From positions 1-6,709 of IMG/VR virus record IMGVR_UViG_2802429221_000016: 6,709 nucleotides of DNA, one strand, 5' to 3'. This DNA comes from a virus (lineage: Duplodnaviria > Heunggongvirae > Uroviricota > Caudoviricetes). Positions 1-3,221 of the stretch are shown here, piece by piece. The notes beneath the pieces are model-generated. The model worked only from the letters and a program-made list of their open reading frames with translations. It searched no databases and was not told the DNA's origin. A program made the position numbers and the translations under genes. Every line of letters starts with the position of its first letter. Positions within the stretch are counted from its first letter, which is position 1.

Positions 1-996
1 TTAACCCACTAGCCAGATCAACATCACAATGATGACGACGAATAATATCCACAGGCTGGGGCGCATTGACATTTCTTTCATCGTGTCAATTAATGGGGTA
101 AATGGATTGAGCAGCGGTTGAATATCACGCGGTTCAATGCCTTTCACCCGCCGCTGATAGAGCTGGTTAAGGATATCTTCGGCCTGTGCAGACGTCAGGG
201 CTGATTGTGTTGAAAGCCCATACTTTTGCTCAACATACGTCGATAATACCGTCAACTCGCTTGCATCCAGTGGCTGCTTTAGCGCCATCTGGAGTGACTC
301 CAGCGTCGGAGTGTGTTGCTGACTTAACGCCTGACGGGCCTGTAACCAGGTGACCAGATGGTTAAACAGTTTCGCCGGAATCAACTCGCCATCTTTCACC
401 CCTGAAAGTTCCAGCATCGATTGCCAAATCTGTTTGCTGGGTTCCCCTGTTGCCGCCGCGAGTTTGGTGACCAGTTGCTTGAGCGTATTGTGTTCCGCTG
501 GTAATAAAGGTCGGTCGGTCGCCTGGCGCTGTTGCGGCTGCGGGATAACCATCTTCCCTTCCTGTAGTAGCGTCAGGACGGTTTTTAATTGCTCTGGTGA
601 GAGTTGATTTAGCGGCGTCTGACCAAAGTTATGCCGGATATAATCCGTGACGGCCTGACGATTATTCCCCAGACGTAAATACTCCCCCAATTGGGCCAAA
701 AGTTGGCGGACAGAATAACTTTTTTGCGCAGACAGCAAACGTTGCGCAAGGTTTTGTTCTGCTGCCGGGAAATGGCGTGAAAGCAAAGGTGAATCACCCG
801 GCAGACCGATGTCGTGCTTTATATTGGCCCACAACTCTGCGCTCTGCTGTTGCGTCAGCGAAGTCACTTTGATCATCAAACTTTCCAACGCGGTACGTTG
901 CAAGCTGGATAAAGGCTGATTGCCTGCGCCAGACGACAGGTTATCCCCCTGACCTGGTGGTTGCGCAGGAGGAGGGCCTGAAAGAGGTTGTATCAT
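1..996 (-). CDS. flk: Flk-like tail-anchored inner-membrane protein (flagellar regulator Flk), complete
   Basis: 331-aa ORF. ATG at 996..994 with AAGGA Shine-Dalgarno 7 nt upstream (plus coords 1004-1008, read on minus strand). Pro/Gln-rich N-terminus MIQPLSGPPPAQPPGQGDNL and a single hydrophobic anchor SLWILFVVIIVMLIWLVG directly before the stop. Length, C-terminal anchor and position next to pdxB match enterobacterial Flk as I remember it; not verified by search. Confidence 0.7.
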   Translation of the reverse strand: MIQPLSGPPPAQPPGQGDNLSSGAGNQPLSSLQRTALESLMIKVTSLTQQQSAELWANIKHDIGLPGDSPLLSRHFPAAEQNLAQRLLSAQKSYSVRQLLAQLGEYLRLGNNRQAVTDYIRHNFGQTPLNQLSPEQLKTVLTLLQEGKMVIPQPQQRQATDRPLLPAEHNTLKQLVTKLAAATGEPSKQIWQSMLELSGVKDGELIPAKLFNHLVTWLQARQALSQQHTPTLESLQMALKQPLDASELTVLSTYVEQKYGLSTQSALTSAQAEDILNQLYQRRVKGIEPRDIQPLLNPFTPLIDTMKEMSMRPSLWILFVVIIVMLIWLVG

Positions 997-1095: not shown

Positions 1096-1140
1096 GTGAA
1101 AATCCTTGTTGATGAAAAAGATGATCGGTTAATTTATTGA
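1096..1140 (+). pseudogene. pdxB: 5' remnant of pdxB (erythronate-4-phosphate dehydrogenase): native start plus 7 codons, then foreign sequence and a stop
   Basis: GTG at 1096 preceded by AGGT (1083-1086) reads M-K-I-L-V-D-E, identical to the PdxB N-terminus as I recall it (MKILVDENMPYA...). It then reads K-D-D-R-L-I-Y-stop (TGA 1138-1140) instead of N-M-P-Y-A. It is divergent from flk, as pdxB is in E. coli/Salmonella. The match is only 7 residues, so this rests on context and needs alignment to a reference. Confidence 0.4.
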
Positions 1141-1160
1141 TATAAAAGGATTTATATCAA
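1137..1160. repeat. Perfect 10-bp inverted repeat TTGATATAAA-agga-TTTATATCAA just inside the junction
   Basis: Read directly: 1137-1146 is the reverse complement of 1151-1160, with a 4-bp spacer. It overlaps the stop of the pdxB remnant. Candidate recombinase/regulator binding site or element-terminal structure; function not established. Confidence 0.5.
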
Positions 1161-1199
1161 CGTATGTCCACGCAGTGACCACATTTTCGAGATATAGTT

Positions 1200-1230
1200 A
1201 AAGCCCGTAAAATATGCGGGCTTTATAATT
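1200..1230 (+). terminator. Intrinsic-terminator-like hairpin followed by a U-rich tract
   Basis: AAAGCCCG (1200-1207) pairs with CGGGCTTT (1217-1224) around a 9-nt loop, followed by TATAATTCTTGCTTT. It would stop read-through from the native pdxB promoter into the element. The stem is flanked by A and T runs, so it could also act weakly on the minus strand. Confidence 0.4.
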
Positions 1231-1316: not shown

Positions 1317-2057
1317 ATGCTTCATTGGGTTTGTACAAAATGTCAGTCTAAAAATTCTACGAAGGAATCAGTGTGTCCTGCGTGTGGAACTTCTTTTTGG
1401 TCGACGCAGAAAAAAGAAAGGAGAGGGTGTTTATTGTTGGTTGTAATGTTCTTCGTTGTGTTTTGGGTTATTGGGCAATTATCCGGAAACGAATCCGATT
1501 CACAGGTAAATAATATTCCATCGAAAGATCATATTAGCGATGAACTTGCTTTATCTGGAGTAGACAAGGCGAAACCGTATTCTTTTGTGCGTTATGATGA
1601 CATAAGTTATGCGGGACGAAAGAGATTTAAGGTTTTTATAGTGTCGCCTGAGTCTCAAGATTTAGAATCAAGAGCTTCGACAGCAATGGCCGCGGCTATT
1701 GAGTGGCAGAAAGAGAAGAGAGCTGACTTTGTATCTGTGTTGCTTCTACCTACAGAAAATTCTGAAGGTAGTTATCGGTTGGCAATGGTTGATTATTCTC
1801 CGGATGGTTGCGGAACTGGTGCTGTATGTGATAATAAAAAATGGACTATATTGTCTAGTGACGTAATATTAACGAAATCGCAACTTCAATCTATATCCTT
1901 GTGGAATGAGTATAAGAAAAAGTTTGCGGGTAATGATGGAATTTTGGATTTAAAGGAAGAAAAGAAATTGAAGCAGTTTATTAGTAAACAGCTAAATATT
2001 CCTGTTAAGGATGTATTTGCTCCAGATATTTTTCCTTTAAAGAAAATCGAAGATTAA
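1317..2057 (+). CDS. Moron-like membrane protein: N-terminal Cys4 zinc ribbon, one TM helix, about 190-aa C-terminal domain; function unknown
   Basis: 246-aa ORF with GGAG (1305-1308) 8 nt before the ATG. CxxC-x10-CxxC (C6, C9, C20, C23), basic stretch QKKERRG, hydrophobic segment CLLLVVMFFVVFWVIGQL (about residues 38-55), then a hydrophilic domain containing a CGTGAVC cysteine pair. Positive-inside rule suggests N-in/C-out. Visibly AT-rich relative to flanks (by eye, not computed). Followed by a terminator. I do not recognise the C-terminal domain. Confidence 0.8.
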   Translation: MLHWVCTKCQSKNSTKESVCPACGTSFWSTQKKERRGCLLLVVMFFVVFWVIGQLSGNESDSQVNNIPSKDHISDELALSGVDKAKPYSFVRYDDISYAGRKRFKVFIVSPESQDLESRASTAMAAAIEWQKEKRADFVSVLLLPTENSEGSYRLAMVDYSPDGCGTGAVCDNKKWTILSSDVILTKSQLQSISLWNEYKKKFAGNDGILDLKEEKKLKQFISKQLNIPVKDVFAPDIFPLKKIED

Positions 2058-2128
2058 CAAAATAAATAGACGAGACTGAATTAGTATTATTGTAATCTTT
2101 AACTGGTACCCTCACTTGTGAGGGCACC

Positions 2129-2172
2129 AAAAAGAAAACCCGCAGTTTTTACGCTGCGGGTTTCTGCTTTGG
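2129..2172. terminator. Bidirectional intrinsic terminator between the convergent moron and hok transcripts
   Basis: Hairpin CCCGCAG (2139-2145) / CTGCGGG (2154-2160) with an 8-nt loop. Plus strand: followed by TTTCTGCTTT (2161-2170). Minus strand: followed by UUUUCUUUUU (complement of 2129-2138). A second imperfect hairpin (2105-2128, CCCTCA...TGAGGG) sits immediately next to it. Confidence 0.6.
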
Positions 2173-2216
2173 GATGTGTATAGGGTGCCTTATCGACCTT
2201 ACCCTGGCAACCGATT

Positions 2217-2251
2217 GACGGGGAAGTTGCCTTCCCCGTCGCGGTTTTCTT
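2217..2251. other. Perfect 10-bp palindromic hairpin abutting the hok stop codon
   Basis: GACGGGGAAG (2217-2226), loop TTGC, CTTCCCCGTC (2231-2240), then GCGG + TTTTCTT on the plus strand. It could be a second plus-strand terminator, or, read on the minus strand, a structured element in the hok 3' UTR. Confidence 0.4.
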
Positions 2252-2393
2252 ACTGTCTACACTGTAAGAACGCCGCAAACTCCGCTCCCCAGAAGCTCAT
2301 CCGTATCTCGCAGAGCGAACCCTGCAACATCCAGATGATGAGGATTGCCGTCACGCACAGTGTGGTGATGGCGATTAGCGATTTTTGCGACAT
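2250..2393 (-). CDS. hok: Hok/Gef-family type I toxin (small membrane-depolarising peptide), 47 aa
   Basis: Not in the ORF track (below its length cut-off). Minus-strand ATG at 2393..2391 with AGGAG 8 nt upstream; stop TAA at 2252..2250. Translation: MSQKSLIAITTLCVTAILIIWMLQGSLCEIRMSFWGAEFAAFLQCRQ. It shares the family layout (N-terminal TM helix, then W-M-x-x-x-S-L-C-E-I/L, then E-x-A-A-F-L-x-C) with E. coli HokA (...FTWMIRDSLCELHIKQESYELAAFLACKLKE) and R1 Hok (...[25 protein letters not shown]), both quoted from memory. Confidence 0.8.
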   Translation of the reverse strand: MSQKSLIAITTLCVTAILIIWMLQGSLCEIRMSFWGAEFAAFLQCRQ

Positions 2394-2496
2394 AGCGCTT
2401 GCTCCTTTTTCGGGGAGGCGCTAACCTACGACTTGCGAAGGTTGTATGGCTAGGGCCTCGGGTTAACGTTAAAGTTGACTCGGGGCCTTTCCACAT
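2257..2496 (-). CDS. mok: mok-like overlapping reading frame (modulator of hok translation)
   Basis: 79-codon ORF in a different frame that begins upstream of hok and overlaps nearly all of it, ending 7 nt from the hok stop. ATG at 2496 with GAAGG upstream. The protein is low-complexity and basic, as expected for a frame that exists for translational coupling rather than for its product. The true start could be internal. Confidence 0.4.
   Translation of the reverse strand: MWKGPESTLTLTRGPSHTTFASRRLAPPRKRSKRYVAKIANRHHHTVRDGNPHHLDVAGFALRDTDELLGSGVCGVLTV
2454..2487 (+). other. Strand-specific RNA hairpin (14 bp with three G-U pairs) antisense to the mok 5' region
   Basis: GGCCTCGGGTTAAC (2454-2467) pairs with GTTGACTCGGGGCC (2474-2487) around loop GTTAAA. 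All three non-Watson-Crick positions are G-U/U-G on the plus-strand RNA and would be C-A mismatches on the minus-strand RNA. Candidate part of a Sok-like antisense RNA; only TTT follows, so it is not a convincing terminator on its own. Confidence 0.3.
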
Positions 2497-2546
2497 TCGG
2501 CCTTCGGGTTTACCCTCCAGCCATCAGCCGAAAGGCACCCGCGCGA

Positions 2547-2576
2547 ATTCTAGCCTGGTTTTTTCCCTTGTTTCAA
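2547..2576 (-). promoter_or_regulatory. Candidate sigma70 promoter for the hok/mok mRNA
   Basis: On the minus strand: TTGAAA (plus coords 2576..2571), 18-bp spacer, TAGAAT (2552..2547); predicted start about 2540, giving a transcript of about 410 nt to the terminator at about 2130. Hexamer match only. Confidence 0.3.
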
Positions 2577-2580
2577 TCCG

Positions 2581-2610
2581 TTGAGACTTATCAGCCTTCT
2601 GATGTAAAAT
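2581..2610 (+). promoter_or_regulatory. Near-consensus sigma70 promoter of the candidate sRNA
   Basis: TTGAGA (2581-2586), 18-bp spacer, TAAAAT (2605-2610). It is back-to-back with the candidate hok promoter; the two -35 elements are 4 bp apart. Confidence 0.45.
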
Positions 2611-2616
2611 TCCCGA

Positions 2617-2681
2617 CCGCAGACATTATTCAGTCACGCATTTGATACATGCTTCCGCCGGCGTTCGCGCCGGTTTTTTTT
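2617..2681 (+). ncRNA. Candidate small RNA, about 65 nt, from promoter to intrinsic terminator
   Basis: Predicted start about 2616-2619, 7-9 nt after the -10. The 3' end is a hairpin CCGGCG (2658-2663), loop TTCG, CGCCGG (2668-2673) followed by eight T (2674-2681). No plausible ORF inside (the only ATG frame runs through the terminator). Sok-like antitoxin RNAs are about this size, but this unit overlaps the hok mRNA only if that mRNA starts to the right of 2681; identity unresolved. Confidence 0.4.
2656..2681 (+). terminator. Textbook Rho-independent terminator (GC stem, UUCG tetraloop, U8)
   Basis: Read directly: perfect 6-bp GC stem, extendable by one G-U pair, UUCG loop, eight consecutive T. 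Plus-strand specific (no U-run on the other side). Confidence 0.7.
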
Positions 2682-2915
2682 CGTCCTGTTGCTGCATAGA
2701 TCGTCATGCGCGATCGAGGCGCGGTATTGATCCTTTTTCAGTTTAATTTTGACTCTCAATTTTACGCATGCCGCGCCGCGTCTGGCTTCGTTGTTTGACG
2801 ATTTTTTGATGCGATCCTTTCGTGATCGTTTCCCGTCTCGCGTAAAATGCAAAAACTCTTTTAATATCATGCGGTTTTATTGCCCCTGCCATTTATGCGA
2901 TCGTAAAAACCACTC

Positions 2916-3020
2916 TGAAAACTGAAAAAAATTTCAAAGCGTGAAATTTCAGATCTTCGCTTTTCCCTCAGTTGCTGCGCGGGCTGGCGGTCATTTTTGC
3001 ACGGCAGAAAACTGAAAAAC
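2916..3020. repeat. A-tract repeat cluster: two copies of GAAAACTGAAAAA plus TGAAA/TTTCA palindromes
   Basis: GAAAACTGAAAAA at 2917-2929 and again at 3007-3019 (13/13). TGAAA-aaaa-TTTCA at 2923-2936 and the perfect 10-bp palindrome TGAAATTTCA at 2942-2951. Non-coding; candidate regulator or nucleoid-protein binding sites. Confidence 0.5.
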
Positions 3021-3033
3021 TGTTTCGACACAA

Positions 3034-3100
3034 AACCCGCGGGTTGGAGGGGGTAGCGCGGTTTACGTCACCTCACGCTTTACGTCACACCGTTTACGTG
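3034..3100. repeat. 12-bp perfect palindrome followed by three direct repeats of TTTACGT(C/G)
   Basis: AACCCGCGGGTT (3034-3045) is self-complementary. TTTACGTCA at 3062-3070 and 3079-3087, and TTTACGTG at 3093-3100, spaced 17 and 14 bp. Lies just downstream of the terminator-like hairpin that follows the 565-aa gene. Candidate operator / iteron / arm-type protein-binding array. Confidence 0.5.
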
Positions 3101-3149
3101 GTGTGCGCATACAGCGCCGGAATGGCACGCAGAACGCATTAATCATGTG

Positions 3150-3184
3150 GCAGATATGAAAACGCACGACCGGAGCCGTGCGTT
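3150..3184 (-). terminator. Candidate intrinsic terminator of the minus-strand structural operon
   Basis: AACGCACG (3161-3168) pairs with CGTGCGTT (3177-3184) around an 8-nt loop, about 40 nt after the stop at 3222-3224. On the minus-strand RNA it is followed by UUUUCAUAUCU. Confidence 0.4.
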
Positions 3185-3221
3185 GCGTGATGGGCGTTTA
3201 TGGGGGTTTTATGCCCGGTGA

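What the first reader, a model, noticed from the sequence alone, without database searches (positions are those of the whole stretch)
2250..2496. Unannotated Hok-family type I toxin with a mok-like overlapping frame inside the phage-like element
A 47-codon minus-strand ORF, invisible to the ORF track, encodes MSQKSLIAITTLCVTAILIIWMLQGSLCEIRMSFWGAEFAAFLQCRQ: one TM helix followed by the S-L-C-E-I-R and E-x-A-A-F-L-x-C motifs of Hok/Gef toxins. It has an AGGAG RBS, a longer overlapping frame in the mok position, and a U-rich terminator downstream (2129-2160, minus strand). hok/sok is a known family and is not novel in itself; what deserves attention is an apparently intact copy sitting in prophage cargo, where such loci can act as addiction or abortive-infection modules.
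Basis: partly seen in the sequence, partly recalled or inferred. Interest (0 to 1): 0.7.

Follow-up and report, generated by a model that had tools for sequence, protein, structure and literature searches.

The report
Prophage-borne Hok/Sok toxin-antitoxin locus
The small minus-strand gene is a genuine, sequence-intact Hok-family membrane toxin with its antisense-RNA antidote, carried as cargo at the end of a P2-type prophage; this exact protein and this arrangement are already catalogued, so it is ordinary.

Summary
The 47-codon ORF at 2250-2393(-) passes Pfam HOK_GEF (29.3 bits, cut-off 22) and matches PHROG 251 over its full length (E 2.8e-21). The exact protein is already in NCBI as "Hok/Gef family protein" on 99 contigs.

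Around the ORF lies a complete hok/sok-type unit:
- a promoter at 2576-2547;
- a 5' tac element that pairs with a 3' fbi element;
- ucb, GAGG and dcb elements that form the Sok-target hairpin once fbi is removed in silico;
- an anti-SD/SD hairpin, a 3' stem-loop and a terminator;
- a conserved antisense promoter and hairpin for a ~60-nt Sok RNA.

The structure is backed by covariation over 18 copies (98% of cells paired versus 36-44% when slid). The locus lies ~1 kb inside a P2-family prophage integrated at pdxB/flk (att core ~1099-1118).

The subfamily is "cluster 72" of a 2025-26 Hok survey. By my reading of that paper's text, an 89%-identical representative was toxic, and the survey shows hok is enriched in prophages.

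One caveat. The mok-like frame is intact here, but it starts 5' of the Sok-target hairpin, not after the GAGG as in R1, and it is broken or lacks a start in 23 of 42 relatives.

Verdict: already known, low interest.

The parts
2547..2576 (-). hok promoter: TTGAAA, 18-nt spacer, TAGAAT; predicted transcription start about 2540
   Evidence: Consensus scan gives 10 of 12 matches. The -10 hexamer lies at a fixed distance from the tac motif GGGTGCC in 17 of the 18 aligned copies; S. diarizonae has a 13-nt insertion there.
2129..2540 (-). predicted full-length hok mRNA (~412 nt)
   Evidence: MFE -181.4 kcal/mol, z = -8.6 against shuffles. The consensus structure is 98.1% paired over 18 copies, against 36-44% when the 3' partners are slid.
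2526..2540 (-). tac (translational activator) element, mRNA nt 1-15 (GGGUGCCUUUCGGCU)
   Evidence: Pairs with 2183-2198 in the full-length MFE. The core GGGUGCC is invariant. All 5 pairs of the extension have changes on both sides.
2257..2496 (-). mok-like overlapping ORF (79 codons; ATG at mRNA nt 45, with GAAGG upstream)
   Evidence: The frame is open in 19 of 42 distinct related leaders, from ATG45 or the overlapping GTG47, and is broken or lacks a start in 23. Stops are depleted in this frame: 28 against 101 and 111.
2454..2487 (-). hairpin formed by ucb (nt 54-57) with the GAGG arm (nt 84-87) in the full-length mRNA; the same DNA encodes the Sok terminator hairpin on the + strand
   Evidence: The hairpin is more stable in the Sok sense than in the mRNA sense in 18 of 18 copies, by 8.4 kcal/mol on average.
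2415..2459 (-). Sok-target hairpin of the 3'-trimmed mRNA (nt 82-126), closed by GAGGC:GCCUC (the equivalent of the R1 'mok SD'/dcb stem); loop at nt 101-108 contains UUCG
   Evidence: Predicted MFE after in silico removal of fbi. All 42 distinct leaders fold the same way. L021 carries a three-way compensatory change, C56U/G85A/C123U.
2399..2427 (+). Sok promoter: -35 TTGCTC (2399-2404), 17-nt spacer, -10 TAACCT (2422-2427)
   Evidence: Read directly from the sequence. The -10 is TAACCT in 17 of 18 copies and TATCCT in one, and the -35 is TTGCTC, TTGACT or TTTACT. The stringent consensus scan did not call this promoter.
2434..2495 (+). predicted Sok antisense RNA (~60 nt): 5' tail, then a hairpin at 2452-2489, then UUUCC
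   Evidence: Fold of -37.4 kcal/mol, z = -6.1. Rfam sok RF01794 matches the leader at 2540-2380 with E 2.2e-5 and 35.8 bits, below the gathering score of 59. The model's orientation was verified on an R1-type locus. The RNA ends are predicted, not mapped.
2394..2424 (-). anti-SD/SD hairpin UAGCGC..GCGCUA, enclosing CCUCC (anti-SD) and the hok SD AGGAG (2406-2402)
   Evidence: Centroid fold. Helix 7 is 98% paired over 18 copies.
2250..2393 (-). hok toxin CDS (47 aa)
   Evidence: Pfam PF01848, 29.3 bits against a cut-off of 22. PHROG 251, E 2.8e-21. The identical protein is in nr. 89% identical to the cloned representative 72_1621.
2209..2246 (-). 3'-UTR stem-loop, the likely protective 3' end of the trimmed mRNA
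   Evidence: Helices 13 and 14 are 99% paired, and 3 pairs have changes on both sides (GC to CG, GC to AU).
2183..2198 (-). fbi (fold-back inhibition) element; core GGCACCC at 2189-2183
   Evidence: Pairs with tac. The core is conserved in all 18 copies, with one G-C to G-U change.
2125..2164 (-). intrinsic terminator of hok
   Evidence: 4 of its 8 pairs have changes on both sides among the copies.
1099..1118 (.). approximate att core, the prophage/chromosome junction
   Evidence: K-12 homology (flk, the intergenic region and the first ~23 nt of pdxB) ends at 1118. Homology to the integrase-proximal region of phage Chuche and to the start of the Shae_phiSM genome begins at 1099-1102.
1317..2057 (+). 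neighbouring cargo gene: zinc-ribbon + DUF4875 protein, in the variable slot between att and hok
   Evidence: Pfam DUF4875, E 7e-35. Other phages carry com/mom, TagO or a TM2-domain protein in this slot.

Best explanation
This is a sequence-intact hok/sok-type type I toxin-antitoxin module carried as cargo (a moron) about 1 kb inside the att-proximal end of a P2-family prophage.

The proposed mechanism is inferred by homology to plasmid R1 hok/sok. It rests on the anatomy found here, not on experiments on this locus.
1. A constitutive promoter makes a stable ~410-nt hok mRNA. This mRNA is held inert because its 5' tac element pairs with the 3' fbi element.
2. Slow 3' trimming back to the 2209-2246 stem-loop removes fbi. 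Tac then pairs with ucb. The released GAGGC pairs with the dcb GCCUC, which forms the Sok-target hairpin and unmasks translation signals.
3. A short, unstable antisense RNA (Sok, ~2434-2495 on the + strand) is made from its own promoter. It docks on the hairpin loop, covers mRNA nt ~46-107 including the mok-like start codon, and blocks translation and/or triggers decay of the duplex.
4. When Sok synthesis stops, the mRNA pool is translated into a 47-aa inner-membrane toxin that kills or arrests the cell. Sok synthesis would stop on loss of the prophage, on transcription shut-off by an infecting phage, or on prophage induction.

The benefit to the prophage is not resolved. It could be stabilisation, abortive infection or help with lysis.
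For: Toxin. Pfam HOK_GEF scores above its gathering cut-off. PHROG 251 matches over the full length. The best NCBIfam model is HokA. The residues the Hok survey reports as conserved (C16, T18, L30, C31, E32, E41 in its numbering) are present here as C13, T15, L27, C28, E29 and E38. The protein is 89% identical to cluster-72 representative 72_1621. That representative and 72_1589 were cloned, and the survey text names only three other sequences as non-toxic.

RNA. The hok promoter and terminator were found by scan. The tac/fbi helix closes the MFE structure, z = -8.6. Over 18 copies, 98.1% of cells are paired against 36-44% when slid, and 18 pairs have two-sided changes against 2-6, including all 5 pairs of the tac/fbi extension. 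In silico trimming gave tac:ucb and GAGGC:GCCUC pairing at 3 of the 4 endpoints tried. The Sok-target hairpin folds the same way in 42 of 42 distinct leaders, and one lineage carries a three-way compensatory change. The Sok promoter boxes are conserved, and the Sok-sense hairpin is the more stable in 18 of 18 copies. Rfam sok matches the right place and strand at E 2.2e-5, and one subfamily member reaches the gathering score.

Context. The element is a P2-family prophage. The att junction is at ~1099-1118. The same module is the last gene in P88, Chuche, Shae_phiSM and many ~35-37 kb IMG/VR contigs.
Against: There is no expression or toxicity data for this locus. All RNA ends are predictions. 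The window's Rfam sok score (35.8) is below the gathering score (59). The Sok -10 hexamer TAACCT matches the consensus at only 3 of 6 positions, and the consensus scan did not call the promoter. The Sok terminator has a poor U-tract. No start codon follows the GAGG as in R1. The mok-like ORF that replaces it is missing from 23 of 42 related leaders, so the coupling step of the R1 model may not apply. Predicted accessibility of the hok SD hardly changes between the full-length and trimmed folds. At one of the four trimming endpoints tried (2205), tac paired locally instead of with ucb.
Confidence: 0.88

Rival explanations
1. Same locus, but regulated without mok. In this Hok subfamily the conserved GAGG is no longer a ribosome-binding site. 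It is purely a structural element that, after 3' trimming, pairs with GCCUC (the anti-SD/dcb) and so frees the hok SD directly. Sok blocks that pairing and targets the mRNA for decay. Under this reading the 79-codon frame in the window is dispensable.
For: No start codon follows GAGG in any of the 42 leaders. 23 of 42 distinct leaders have no ORF that reads through the hok SD; these include P88, Chuche, STEC316, the Stx-phage copy and all Salmonella-type copies. The frame was broken at four or more independent sites. GAGGC:GCCUC is fully conserved and has one compensatory double change. The authors of the Hok survey state that they did not analyse Mok.
Against: Stops are about four-fold depleted in the mok frame (28 against 101 and 111), and 21 of 42 leaders have none, against 1 and 4 for the other frames. 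The motif GAAGG-N4-ATGTG supplies a start in the mok frame under both indel states. In R1, premature mok stops abolish Hok translation (PMC9841398), so relatives with a broken frame may simply be silenced copies. Predicted SD accessibility does not change in the trimmed fold.
Confidence: 0.25
2. A silenced or decaying hok relic. The ORF and RNA motifs are retained by descent, but the locus no longer produces toxin, as with most K-12 chromosomal hok loci.
For: K-12 hokA/mokA/sokA is disrupted by IS150. In STEC316 the related prophage has frameshifted terminase and portal genes. The Sok -10 is weak.
Against: Here every element is intact: both promoters, tac, fbi, ucb, dcb, the SD, the ORF, the 3' stem-loop and the terminator, with no IS or frameshift. 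Compensatory changes across copies show continuing selection on the RNA structure. Cluster-72 toxins tested in the survey were toxic according to its text. The identical protein recurs on 99 contigs.
Confidence: 0.08
3. Its main biological role is to help the prophage lyse the host on induction, as reported for hokW-sokW of Stx2 prophage Sp5, rather than addiction or abortive infection.
For: For hokW-sokW, mitomycin C depletes sokW, HokW accumulates in a RecA-dependent way, and deleting the locus halves phage release (PMC8621323). The window's module also occurs in Stx phages, next to lom.
Against: HokW belongs to a different Hok subfamily; its N-terminus is MKQQKAM according to the cloning primer. 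Nothing in the sequence separates this role from post-segregational killing or phage exclusion. R1 hok/sok is reported to reduce T4 plating (cited in PMC8621323). There are no PADLOC hits for this protein or its neighbours.
Confidence: 0.2
4. A chance small ORF with a hydrophobic stretch that only resembles Hok.
For: None beyond its small size.
Against: Pfam, NCBIfam and PHROG all match. The Rfam leader model matches. The RNA structure covaries. There are hundreds of annotated homologues.
Confidence: 0.005

Closest known systems
Hok 'cluster 72' of Escalera-Maurer et al. (bioRxiv 10.1101/2025.08.07.668861); representatives 72_1621 and 72_1589
   Same: Same subfamily: MSQKSL...GAEFAAFLQCKQ, 46-47 aa. 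The window's toxin is 89% identical to 72_1621, whose sequence equals the Chuche and STEC316 copies, and 70% identical to 72_1589, which equals the Stx-phage phi346 copy. Both were cloned for toxicity assays, and the text lists only three other sequences as non-toxic.
   Different: The window allele has one extra residue (ITTL in place of ITF) and ends in RQ rather than KQ. The survey analysed only the coding sequences, not mok, Sok or the mRNA structure.
hok/sok (parB) of plasmid R1
   Same: The toxin family is the same. The locus has tac/fbi 5'-3' closure, a ucb:GAGG hairpin with the same internal C·A mismatch, a GAGG:dcb stem in the trimmed form, and a cis-antisense Sok with its -35 box over the hok SD and its -10 box about 20 nt upstream. 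The Rfam sok model matches both loci.
   Different: Toxin identity is only 32%. In R1, mok starts at nt 116-118, just after the GAGG. Here no start codon follows the GAGG, and the mok-like ORF starts at nt 45, 5' of the hairpin. The locus is carried by a prophage, not a plasmid.
hokA/sokA of E. coli K-12
   Same: HokA is the best-scoring curated NCBIfam model (E 2e-8). Both proteins share the MxQK N-terminus and the AAFLxC C-terminus.
   Different: Identity is 38%. The score of 34 bits is far below the equivalog cut-off of 89, so this is not a HokA orthologue. K-12 hokA is inactivated by IS150.
hokW-sokW of Stx2 prophage Sp5 (Takada et al. 2021, PMC8621323)
   Same: A prophage-borne hok/sok pair shown experimentally to be a type I TA system. 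The PHROG family label 'MokW-like host killing' covers both proteins.
   Different: HokW is 51 aa and starts MKQQKAM, so it is HokC/D-like and belongs to a different subfamily. The Stx-phage copy examined here (phi346) carries the window's subfamily at a separate place, next to lom.

Membership tests
Hok/Gef toxin family (Pfam PF01848) | Match to the family HMM above the curated gathering score | tested here: met
   29.3 bits against a cut-off of 22, E 6.5e-7, profile positions 4-42 of 42. PHROG 251 matches over the full length at E 2.8e-21.
Hok/Gef toxin family (Pfam PF01848) | A ~50-aa peptide with an N-terminal hydrophobic helix and the residues the Hok survey reports as conserved (C16, T18, L30, C31, E32, E41 in its logo) | tested here: met
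   47 aa. C13, T15, L27, C28, E29 and E38 occupy the equivalent positions (translation; logo description).
Hok/Gef toxin family (Pfam PF01848) | Kills or arrests the cell through the inner membrane when expressed | not testable with these tools
   Indirect only. Representatives of the same 60%-identity cluster (72_1621, 72_1589) were cloned, and the survey text names only three other sequences as non-toxic.
hok/sok type I TA locus (R1 paradigm) | Long-range tac (5') / fbi (3') pairing that closes the full-length mRNA | tested here: met
   nt 1-15 pair with nt 343-358 in the MFE structure. The core is invariant, and all 5 extension pairs have changes on both sides over 18 copies.
hok/sok type I TA locus (R1 paradigm) | Alternative tac:ucb and SD:dcb pairings in the 3'-trimmed mRNA, forming the Sok-target hairpin | tested here: met
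   Thermodynamic prediction only. Three of four trimmed endpoints gave tac nt 1-10 pairing with nt 51-59, and GAGGC 82-86 pairing with GCCUC 122-126. The same hairpin forms in 42 of 42 leaders, with one three-way compensatory change.
hok/sok type I TA locus (R1 paradigm) | A cis-encoded antisense Sok RNA with its own promoter and terminator hairpin, complementary to the leader | tested here: met
   In silico only. The -35 and -10 boxes are conserved in position (17 of 18 copies have TAACCT). The hairpin is more stable in the Sok sense in 18 of 18 copies. No transcript data exist.
hok/sok type I TA locus (R1 paradigm) | Rfam sok (RF01794) match at the gathering score | tested here: not met
   35.8 bits against 59, though E is 2.2e-5 and the place and strand are correct. 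Relatives in the subfamily score 35.6-59.7, and the R1-type locus scores 87.
hok/sok type I TA locus (R1 paradigm) | A mok ORF that starts just after the GAGG within the Sok-target region, overlaps hok and is required for its translation | tested here: inconclusive
   No start codon follows the GAGG in any copy. A 79-codon ORF in the mok frame does start at nt 45 and reads through the hok SD in the window, but only in 19 of 42 related leaders. Stops are depleted in that frame. Coupling cannot be tested here.
hok/sok type I TA locus (R1 paradigm) | 3' exonucleolytic processing of the mRNA and RNase III cleavage of the Sok:mRNA duplex | not testable with these tools
   This needs RNA work. A conserved 3' stem-loop that could stop trimming is present at 2209-2246.
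HokA equivalog (NCBIfam NF007290) | Score above the curated equivalog cut-off | tested here: not met
   34.1 bits against 89. 38% identity to K-12 HokA.
HokW (Sp5 prophage) | Close sequence identity to HokW (51 aa, N-terminus MKQQKAM) | tested here: not met
   Only the N-terminus of HokW could be compared (MKQQKAM, read from cloning primer YO-357; the full sequence is in a figure that is not held). It differs from MSQKSLI, and the lengths are 51 and 47 aa.
Hok cluster 72 (60%-identity cluster of the 2025-26 survey) | At least 60% identity to cluster members | tested here: met
   89% to the sequence of 72_1621 and 70% to that of 72_1589.

The most novel reading that the evidence does not exclude
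In this prophage-associated Hok subfamily (cluster 72) the regulatory logic may have diverged from R1. The GAGG that serves as the mok ribosome-binding site in R1 would survive only as a structural element: the partner of ucb in the closed form and of dcb in the open form. The leader ORF has either moved to an ATGTG motif 5' of the Sok-target hairpin or been lost altogether. Hok translation in many members would then be controlled directly by an RNA switch plus Sok, without translational coupling to mok.
Probability: 0.25. Interest if true: 0.35.

Novelty: already known. Interest (0 to 1): 0.13.

Why it matters
It matters little beyond correct annotation. The window contains a complete and apparently functional type I toxin-antitoxin module that a length-filtered ORF track missed. 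Such modules can stabilise the prophage, interfere with other phages or affect lysis, so they should be annotated when prophage cargo is interpreted. The one point of wider interest is comparative. This common prophage-borne Hok subfamily keeps every RNA element of the R1 paradigm but treats mok as movable or dispensable. The largest Hok survey left the mok question open, and simple mutagenesis could settle it.

Tried and rejected
With the alignment A1, the species-representative genomes gave only 6 loci, three of them probably enterobacterial contamination in unrelated assemblies.
- Equating the locus with hokW-sokW was rejected. The 'MokW-like' label is only a generic PHROG name, and the HokW primer shows a different N-terminus.
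- Calling it a HokA orthologue was rejected, because the score is far below the equivalog cut-off.
- My first conclusion, that the mok-like frame is fortuitous, was revised. With 42 leaders, ATG45 or GTG47 gives an ORF in the mok frame in 19 of them, and stops are depleted in that frame. The question stays open.
- Rebuilding the K-12 hokA leader by removing IS150, to locate mokA, was uninformative because the leader is disrupted.
- PADLOC models gave nothing for Hok, the DUF4875 protein or the neighbouring proteins.
- The P2/P4 defence-hotspot papers do not mention hok, and their hotspot is the cos-adjacent one. I therefore do not claim that this att-proximal slot is an established defence hotspot.
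- The weak Rfam hits to Thr_leader (E 0.8, which is just the terminator) and RsmY (E 0.3) are treated as chance.
- The + strand promoter/terminator pair at 2581-2674 shows no special structure (z = -1.1).
Full report
**1. Observation**

- A 47-codon ORF lies at 2250-2393. It encodes MSQKSLIAITTLCVTAILIIWMLQGSLCEIRMSFWGAEFAAFLQCRQ.
- AGGAG lies at 2406-2402, 8 nt upstream of the ATG.
- A 79-codon ORF in another frame spans 2257-2496.
- A G+C-rich hairpin with a T-run lies at 2164-2125.

**2. Is it a Hok toxin?**

Yes.
- Pfam HOK_GEF scores 29.3 bits against a gathering score of 22 (E 6.5e-7). The 79-aa frame matches no family.
- The best NCBIfam model is the HokA equivalog, at 34 bits. That is far below its cut-off of 89, so this is a Hok but not HokA.
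- PHROG 251 ('MokW-like host killing') matches over the full length at E 2.8e-21.
- The protein search found 43 relatives. All are 26-81 aa, and those that carry a source name are called Hok/Gef, from E. coli, Shigella or Salmonella.
- The exact sequence is in NCBI as 'MULTISPECIES: Hok/Gef family protein [Enterobacteriaceae]' and is seen on 99 contigs.
- PGAP annotates the homologous ORF in the related E. coli genomes inspected. DNA of the 2000-2800 stretch, which also takes in flanking sequence, matches 1561 of 5426 complete E. coli genomes.
- Identity is 38% to K-12 HokA and 32% to an R1-type Hok.

**3. Which Hok?**

A 2025-26 survey (bioRxiv 10.1101/2025.08.07.668861) clustered 1264 Hok peptides at 60% identity. 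Its supplementary files list the MSQKSL...GAEFAAFLQCKQ peptides as cluster 72. They also list two constructs, 72_1621 and 72_1589.
- 72_1621 is identical to the copies in phage Chuche and E. coli STEC316, and 89% identical to the window's toxin.
- 72_1589 is identical to the copy in Stx phage phi346.
- The text states that 42 of 45 tested homologues were toxic, and it names three other sequences as the non-toxic ones.

The experimentally characterised prophage pair hokW-sokW of Sp5 (PMC8621323) is not this subfamily. Its cloning primer encodes MKQQKAM and the protein is 51 aa.

**4. RNA anatomy**

*Promoter, fold and long-range closure.*
- A promoter, TTGAAA-18 nt-TAGAAT, lies at 2576-2547(-) and places the transcription start near 2540.
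- The predicted 412-nt transcript (2540 to 2129) folds at -181.4 kcal/mol, z = -8.6. It is closed by nt 1-15 pairing with nt 343-358, that is 2540-2526 with 2198-2183. This is the tac/fbi hallmark of hok mRNAs.

*Rfam.*
- The Rfam sok model matches 2540-2380(-) at E 2.2e-5, but at 35.8 bits it is below the gathering score of 59.
- The model also lies on the hok-sense strand just upstream of hok in an R1-type plasmid locus (87 bits). One subfamily member reaches 59.7 bits.

*Comparative structure.* I aligned 18 distinct copies from E. coli, E. albertii, Salmonella, phages P88, Chuche, Shae_phiSM and phi346, and assemblies. For the RNAalifold consensus:
- 98.1% of cells are paired, against 36-44% when the 3' partners are slid by 1-3 columns.
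- 18 pairs have changes on both sides, against 2-6 when slid.
- No shuffle out of 500 reached the observed values for four of the five measures. For the number of further pair types, 239 of 500 did.
- The tac and fbi cores are conserved in all 18 copies, with a single G-C to G-U change. All five pairs of the tac/fbi extension covary. The 3'-UTR stem-loop (2209-2246) and the terminator also carry compensatory changes.

*The conformational switch.*
- I removed fbi in silico at four endpoints. At three of them the MFE structure pairs tac nt 1-10 with nt 51-59 (AAAGGCCCC, the ucb equivalent). The released GAGGC (nt 82-86) then pairs with GCCUC (nt 122-126).
- This is the 'tac/ucb stem and mok SD/dcb stem' rearrangement described for R1 (PMC9841398).
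- All 42 distinct leaders obtained from 98 loci fold nt 82-126 into the same hairpin. The upper stem is allele-specific but re-forms in each.
- One lineage carries a three-way compensatory change, C56U/G85A/C123U. It preserves both mutually exclusive pairings.

*The antisense RNA.*
- On the + strand there is a -35 box TTGCTC (2399-2404), a 17-nt spacer and a -10 box TAACCT (2422-2427). These are followed by a 5' tail and a strong hairpin at 2452-2489 (-37.4 kcal/mol, z = -6.1).
- The boxes are conserved in position. The -10 is TAACCT in 17 of 18 copies and TATCCT in the other one.
- The hairpin is more stable in the Sok sense than in the mRNA sense in 18 of 18 copies, by 8.4 kcal/mol on average. 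G·U pairs in Sok become C·A mismatches in the mRNA.
- The predicted Sok 5' end (~2434) faces the loop of the target hairpin, which contains UUCG.
- No transcript data exist, so the RNA ends are predictions.

**5. The mok question**

In R1 the mok SD is the GAGG at nt 104-107 and the AUG is at nt 116-118. Translation of mok up to the hok SD is required for Hok (PMC9841398). My ORF-finding procedure recovered that start in an R1-type locus.

In the window the homologous GAGG is kept, but no start codon follows it, in this copy or any other. The 79-codon frame instead starts at nt 45, within the conserved motif GAAGG-N4-ATGTG.
- Depending on a 1-nt indel in the hairpin loop, either ATG45 or the overlapping GTG47 is in the mok frame.
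- An ORF that reads through the hok SD exists in 19 of 42 distinct leaders (64 of 98 loci). It is absent from 23, including P88, Chuche, STEC316, phi346 and all Salmonella-type copies.
- Stops are about four-fold depleted in that frame (28 against 101 and 111), and 21 leaders have none, against 1 and 4 for the other frames. The sequences are related, so these counts are not independent.
- The frame has been broken at four or more separate sites.

So the mok-like frame is present and plausibly functional here, but it is positioned differently from R1 and is not universal. The Hok survey explicitly left Mok unanalysed.

**6. Context**

- Window 1-996(-) is flk. K-12 homology runs to 1118 and includes the first ~23 nt of pdxB.
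- Window 1099-1224 matches the integrase-proximal region of phage Chuche and the start of the Shae_phiSM genome. This puts the att core at ~1099-1118.
- In the syntenic STEC316 genome the element is a ~36 kb P2-family prophage. It has an integrase, a replication endonuclease, ogr/Delta, portal, terminase, GPO scaffold, P2-family capsid, tape measure, baseplate J and tail fibres.
- The window's 3222-6685 genes are baseplate and tail proteins: PHROG 2258, Pfam HP1_ORF34 and DUF4376.
- hok is the last gene on the tail side. A variable slot follows before att, filled here by a zinc-ribbon/DUF4875 protein. Elsewhere the slot holds com/mom, TagO or a TM2-domain protein, and in E. coli A36 it is empty.
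- DNA of the hok unit alone (window ~2126-2552) accounts for all the listed phage matches but two, which fall in the tail-fibre region. In all, 201 phage records match the query.
- 264 IMG/VR contigs encode a relative. In many of the 80 that were kept, hok is the terminal gene of a ~35-37 kb contig.
- The survey reports that 23% of hok genes lie in prophages where 5% would be expected.

**7. Function**

The molecular mechanism is inferred by homology and anatomy. A stable but inert toxin mRNA is activated by 3' trimming and kept in check by an unstable antisense RNA. Toxin appears when Sok synthesis stops.

Three benefits to the prophage are possible, and the sequence cannot separate them:
- post-segregational stabilisation;
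- exclusion of infecting phages (R1 hok/sok reduces T4 plating, as cited in PMC8621323);
- accelerated lysis on induction (hokW-sokW, PMC8621323).

PADLOC has no model that matches Hok or its neighbours. The P2 defence-hotspot papers do not mention hok.

**8. Verdict**

However, the protein, the subfamily, its probable toxicity and its prophage association are already on record. The only mildly new point is that mok is displaced and facultative in this subfamily. That rests on comparative sequence analysis alone.

Noticed in passing
window 1099-1224: This is the prophage/chromosome junction. K-12 homology (flk, the intergenic region and the first ~23 nt of pdxB) ends at 1118. Homology to the integrase-proximal region of phage Chuche and to the start of the Shae_phiSM genome starts at 1099-1102. 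The P2-family prophage is therefore integrated at the 5' end of pdxB.
   Followed up: partly
window 1317-2057 (+): A 246-aa protein with an N-terminal zinc ribbon and a DUF4875 domain fills the variable cargo slot between att and hok. Related phages and prophages carry com/mom, TagO plus a hypothetical protein, or a TM2-domain protein there. It matches PHROG 28655 (function unknown) and has no PADLOC hit.
   Followed up: partly
L023 (E. coli STEC316, NZ_CP041431.1 1566000-1612000): The syntenic prophage is flanked by flk on the hok side but by dmsA on the integrase side. These genes lie in distant regions of the K-12 chromosome. In E. coli A36 the same hok-tail end abuts serS. This suggests a large inversion by recombination between two P2-like prophages at the pdxB/flk and serS/dmsA sites. 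The terminase and portal genes there are frameshifted.
   Followed up: no
window 2581-2682 (+): A sigma-70-like promoter (TTGAGA-18 nt-TAAAAT, 2581-2610) lies divergent from hok. A clean intrinsic terminator follows it (GCCGGCGTTCGCGCCGG plus T8, 2657-2682). Together they could give a ~65-nt transcript. Apart from the terminator the fold is unremarkable (z = -1.1), and there is no Rfam hit.
   Followed up: partly
window 2584-3221: About 640 bp between the hok promoter and the baseplate gene has no annotated gene in related genomes. It holds only short, basic, low-confidence ORFs; the 78-aa one matches no Pfam family.
   Followed up: partly
window 2263-2310 (hok codons 29-44); alignment A3 columns 323-364: The 3' third of the hok CDS (GGAGCGGAGTTTGCGGCGTTCTTACA...) is almost invariant at the nucleotide level across 18 copies, third codon positions included. 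It pairs with the first codons of hok (A3 columns 217-230 with 323-336, 100% paired). This points to an RNA-level constraint inside the coding region.
   Followed up: partly
L014 (plasmid pMTY1886_IncFII, NZ_CP128973.1): In this R1-type locus the ATG after the GAGG is in frame with hok, giving a 71-codon N-terminally extended Hok ORF rather than an overlapping mok. PGAP calls only a 33-aa CDS there.
   Followed up: no
L004, L005, L007: Hok loci of this enterobacterial subfamily occur in assemblies labelled Planococcaceae MAG, Vagococcus sp. and Xanthomonas pisi. These are most likely contaminating enterobacterial contigs.
   Followed up: no
window 1-996 (-): flk is only ~85% identical to K-12 flk, and across the whole window nearly all E. 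coli genomes match best at 80-90%. The prophage part is 94-97% identical to E. coli A36 and E. albertii. The host may be a divergent Escherichia lineage.
   Followed up: no
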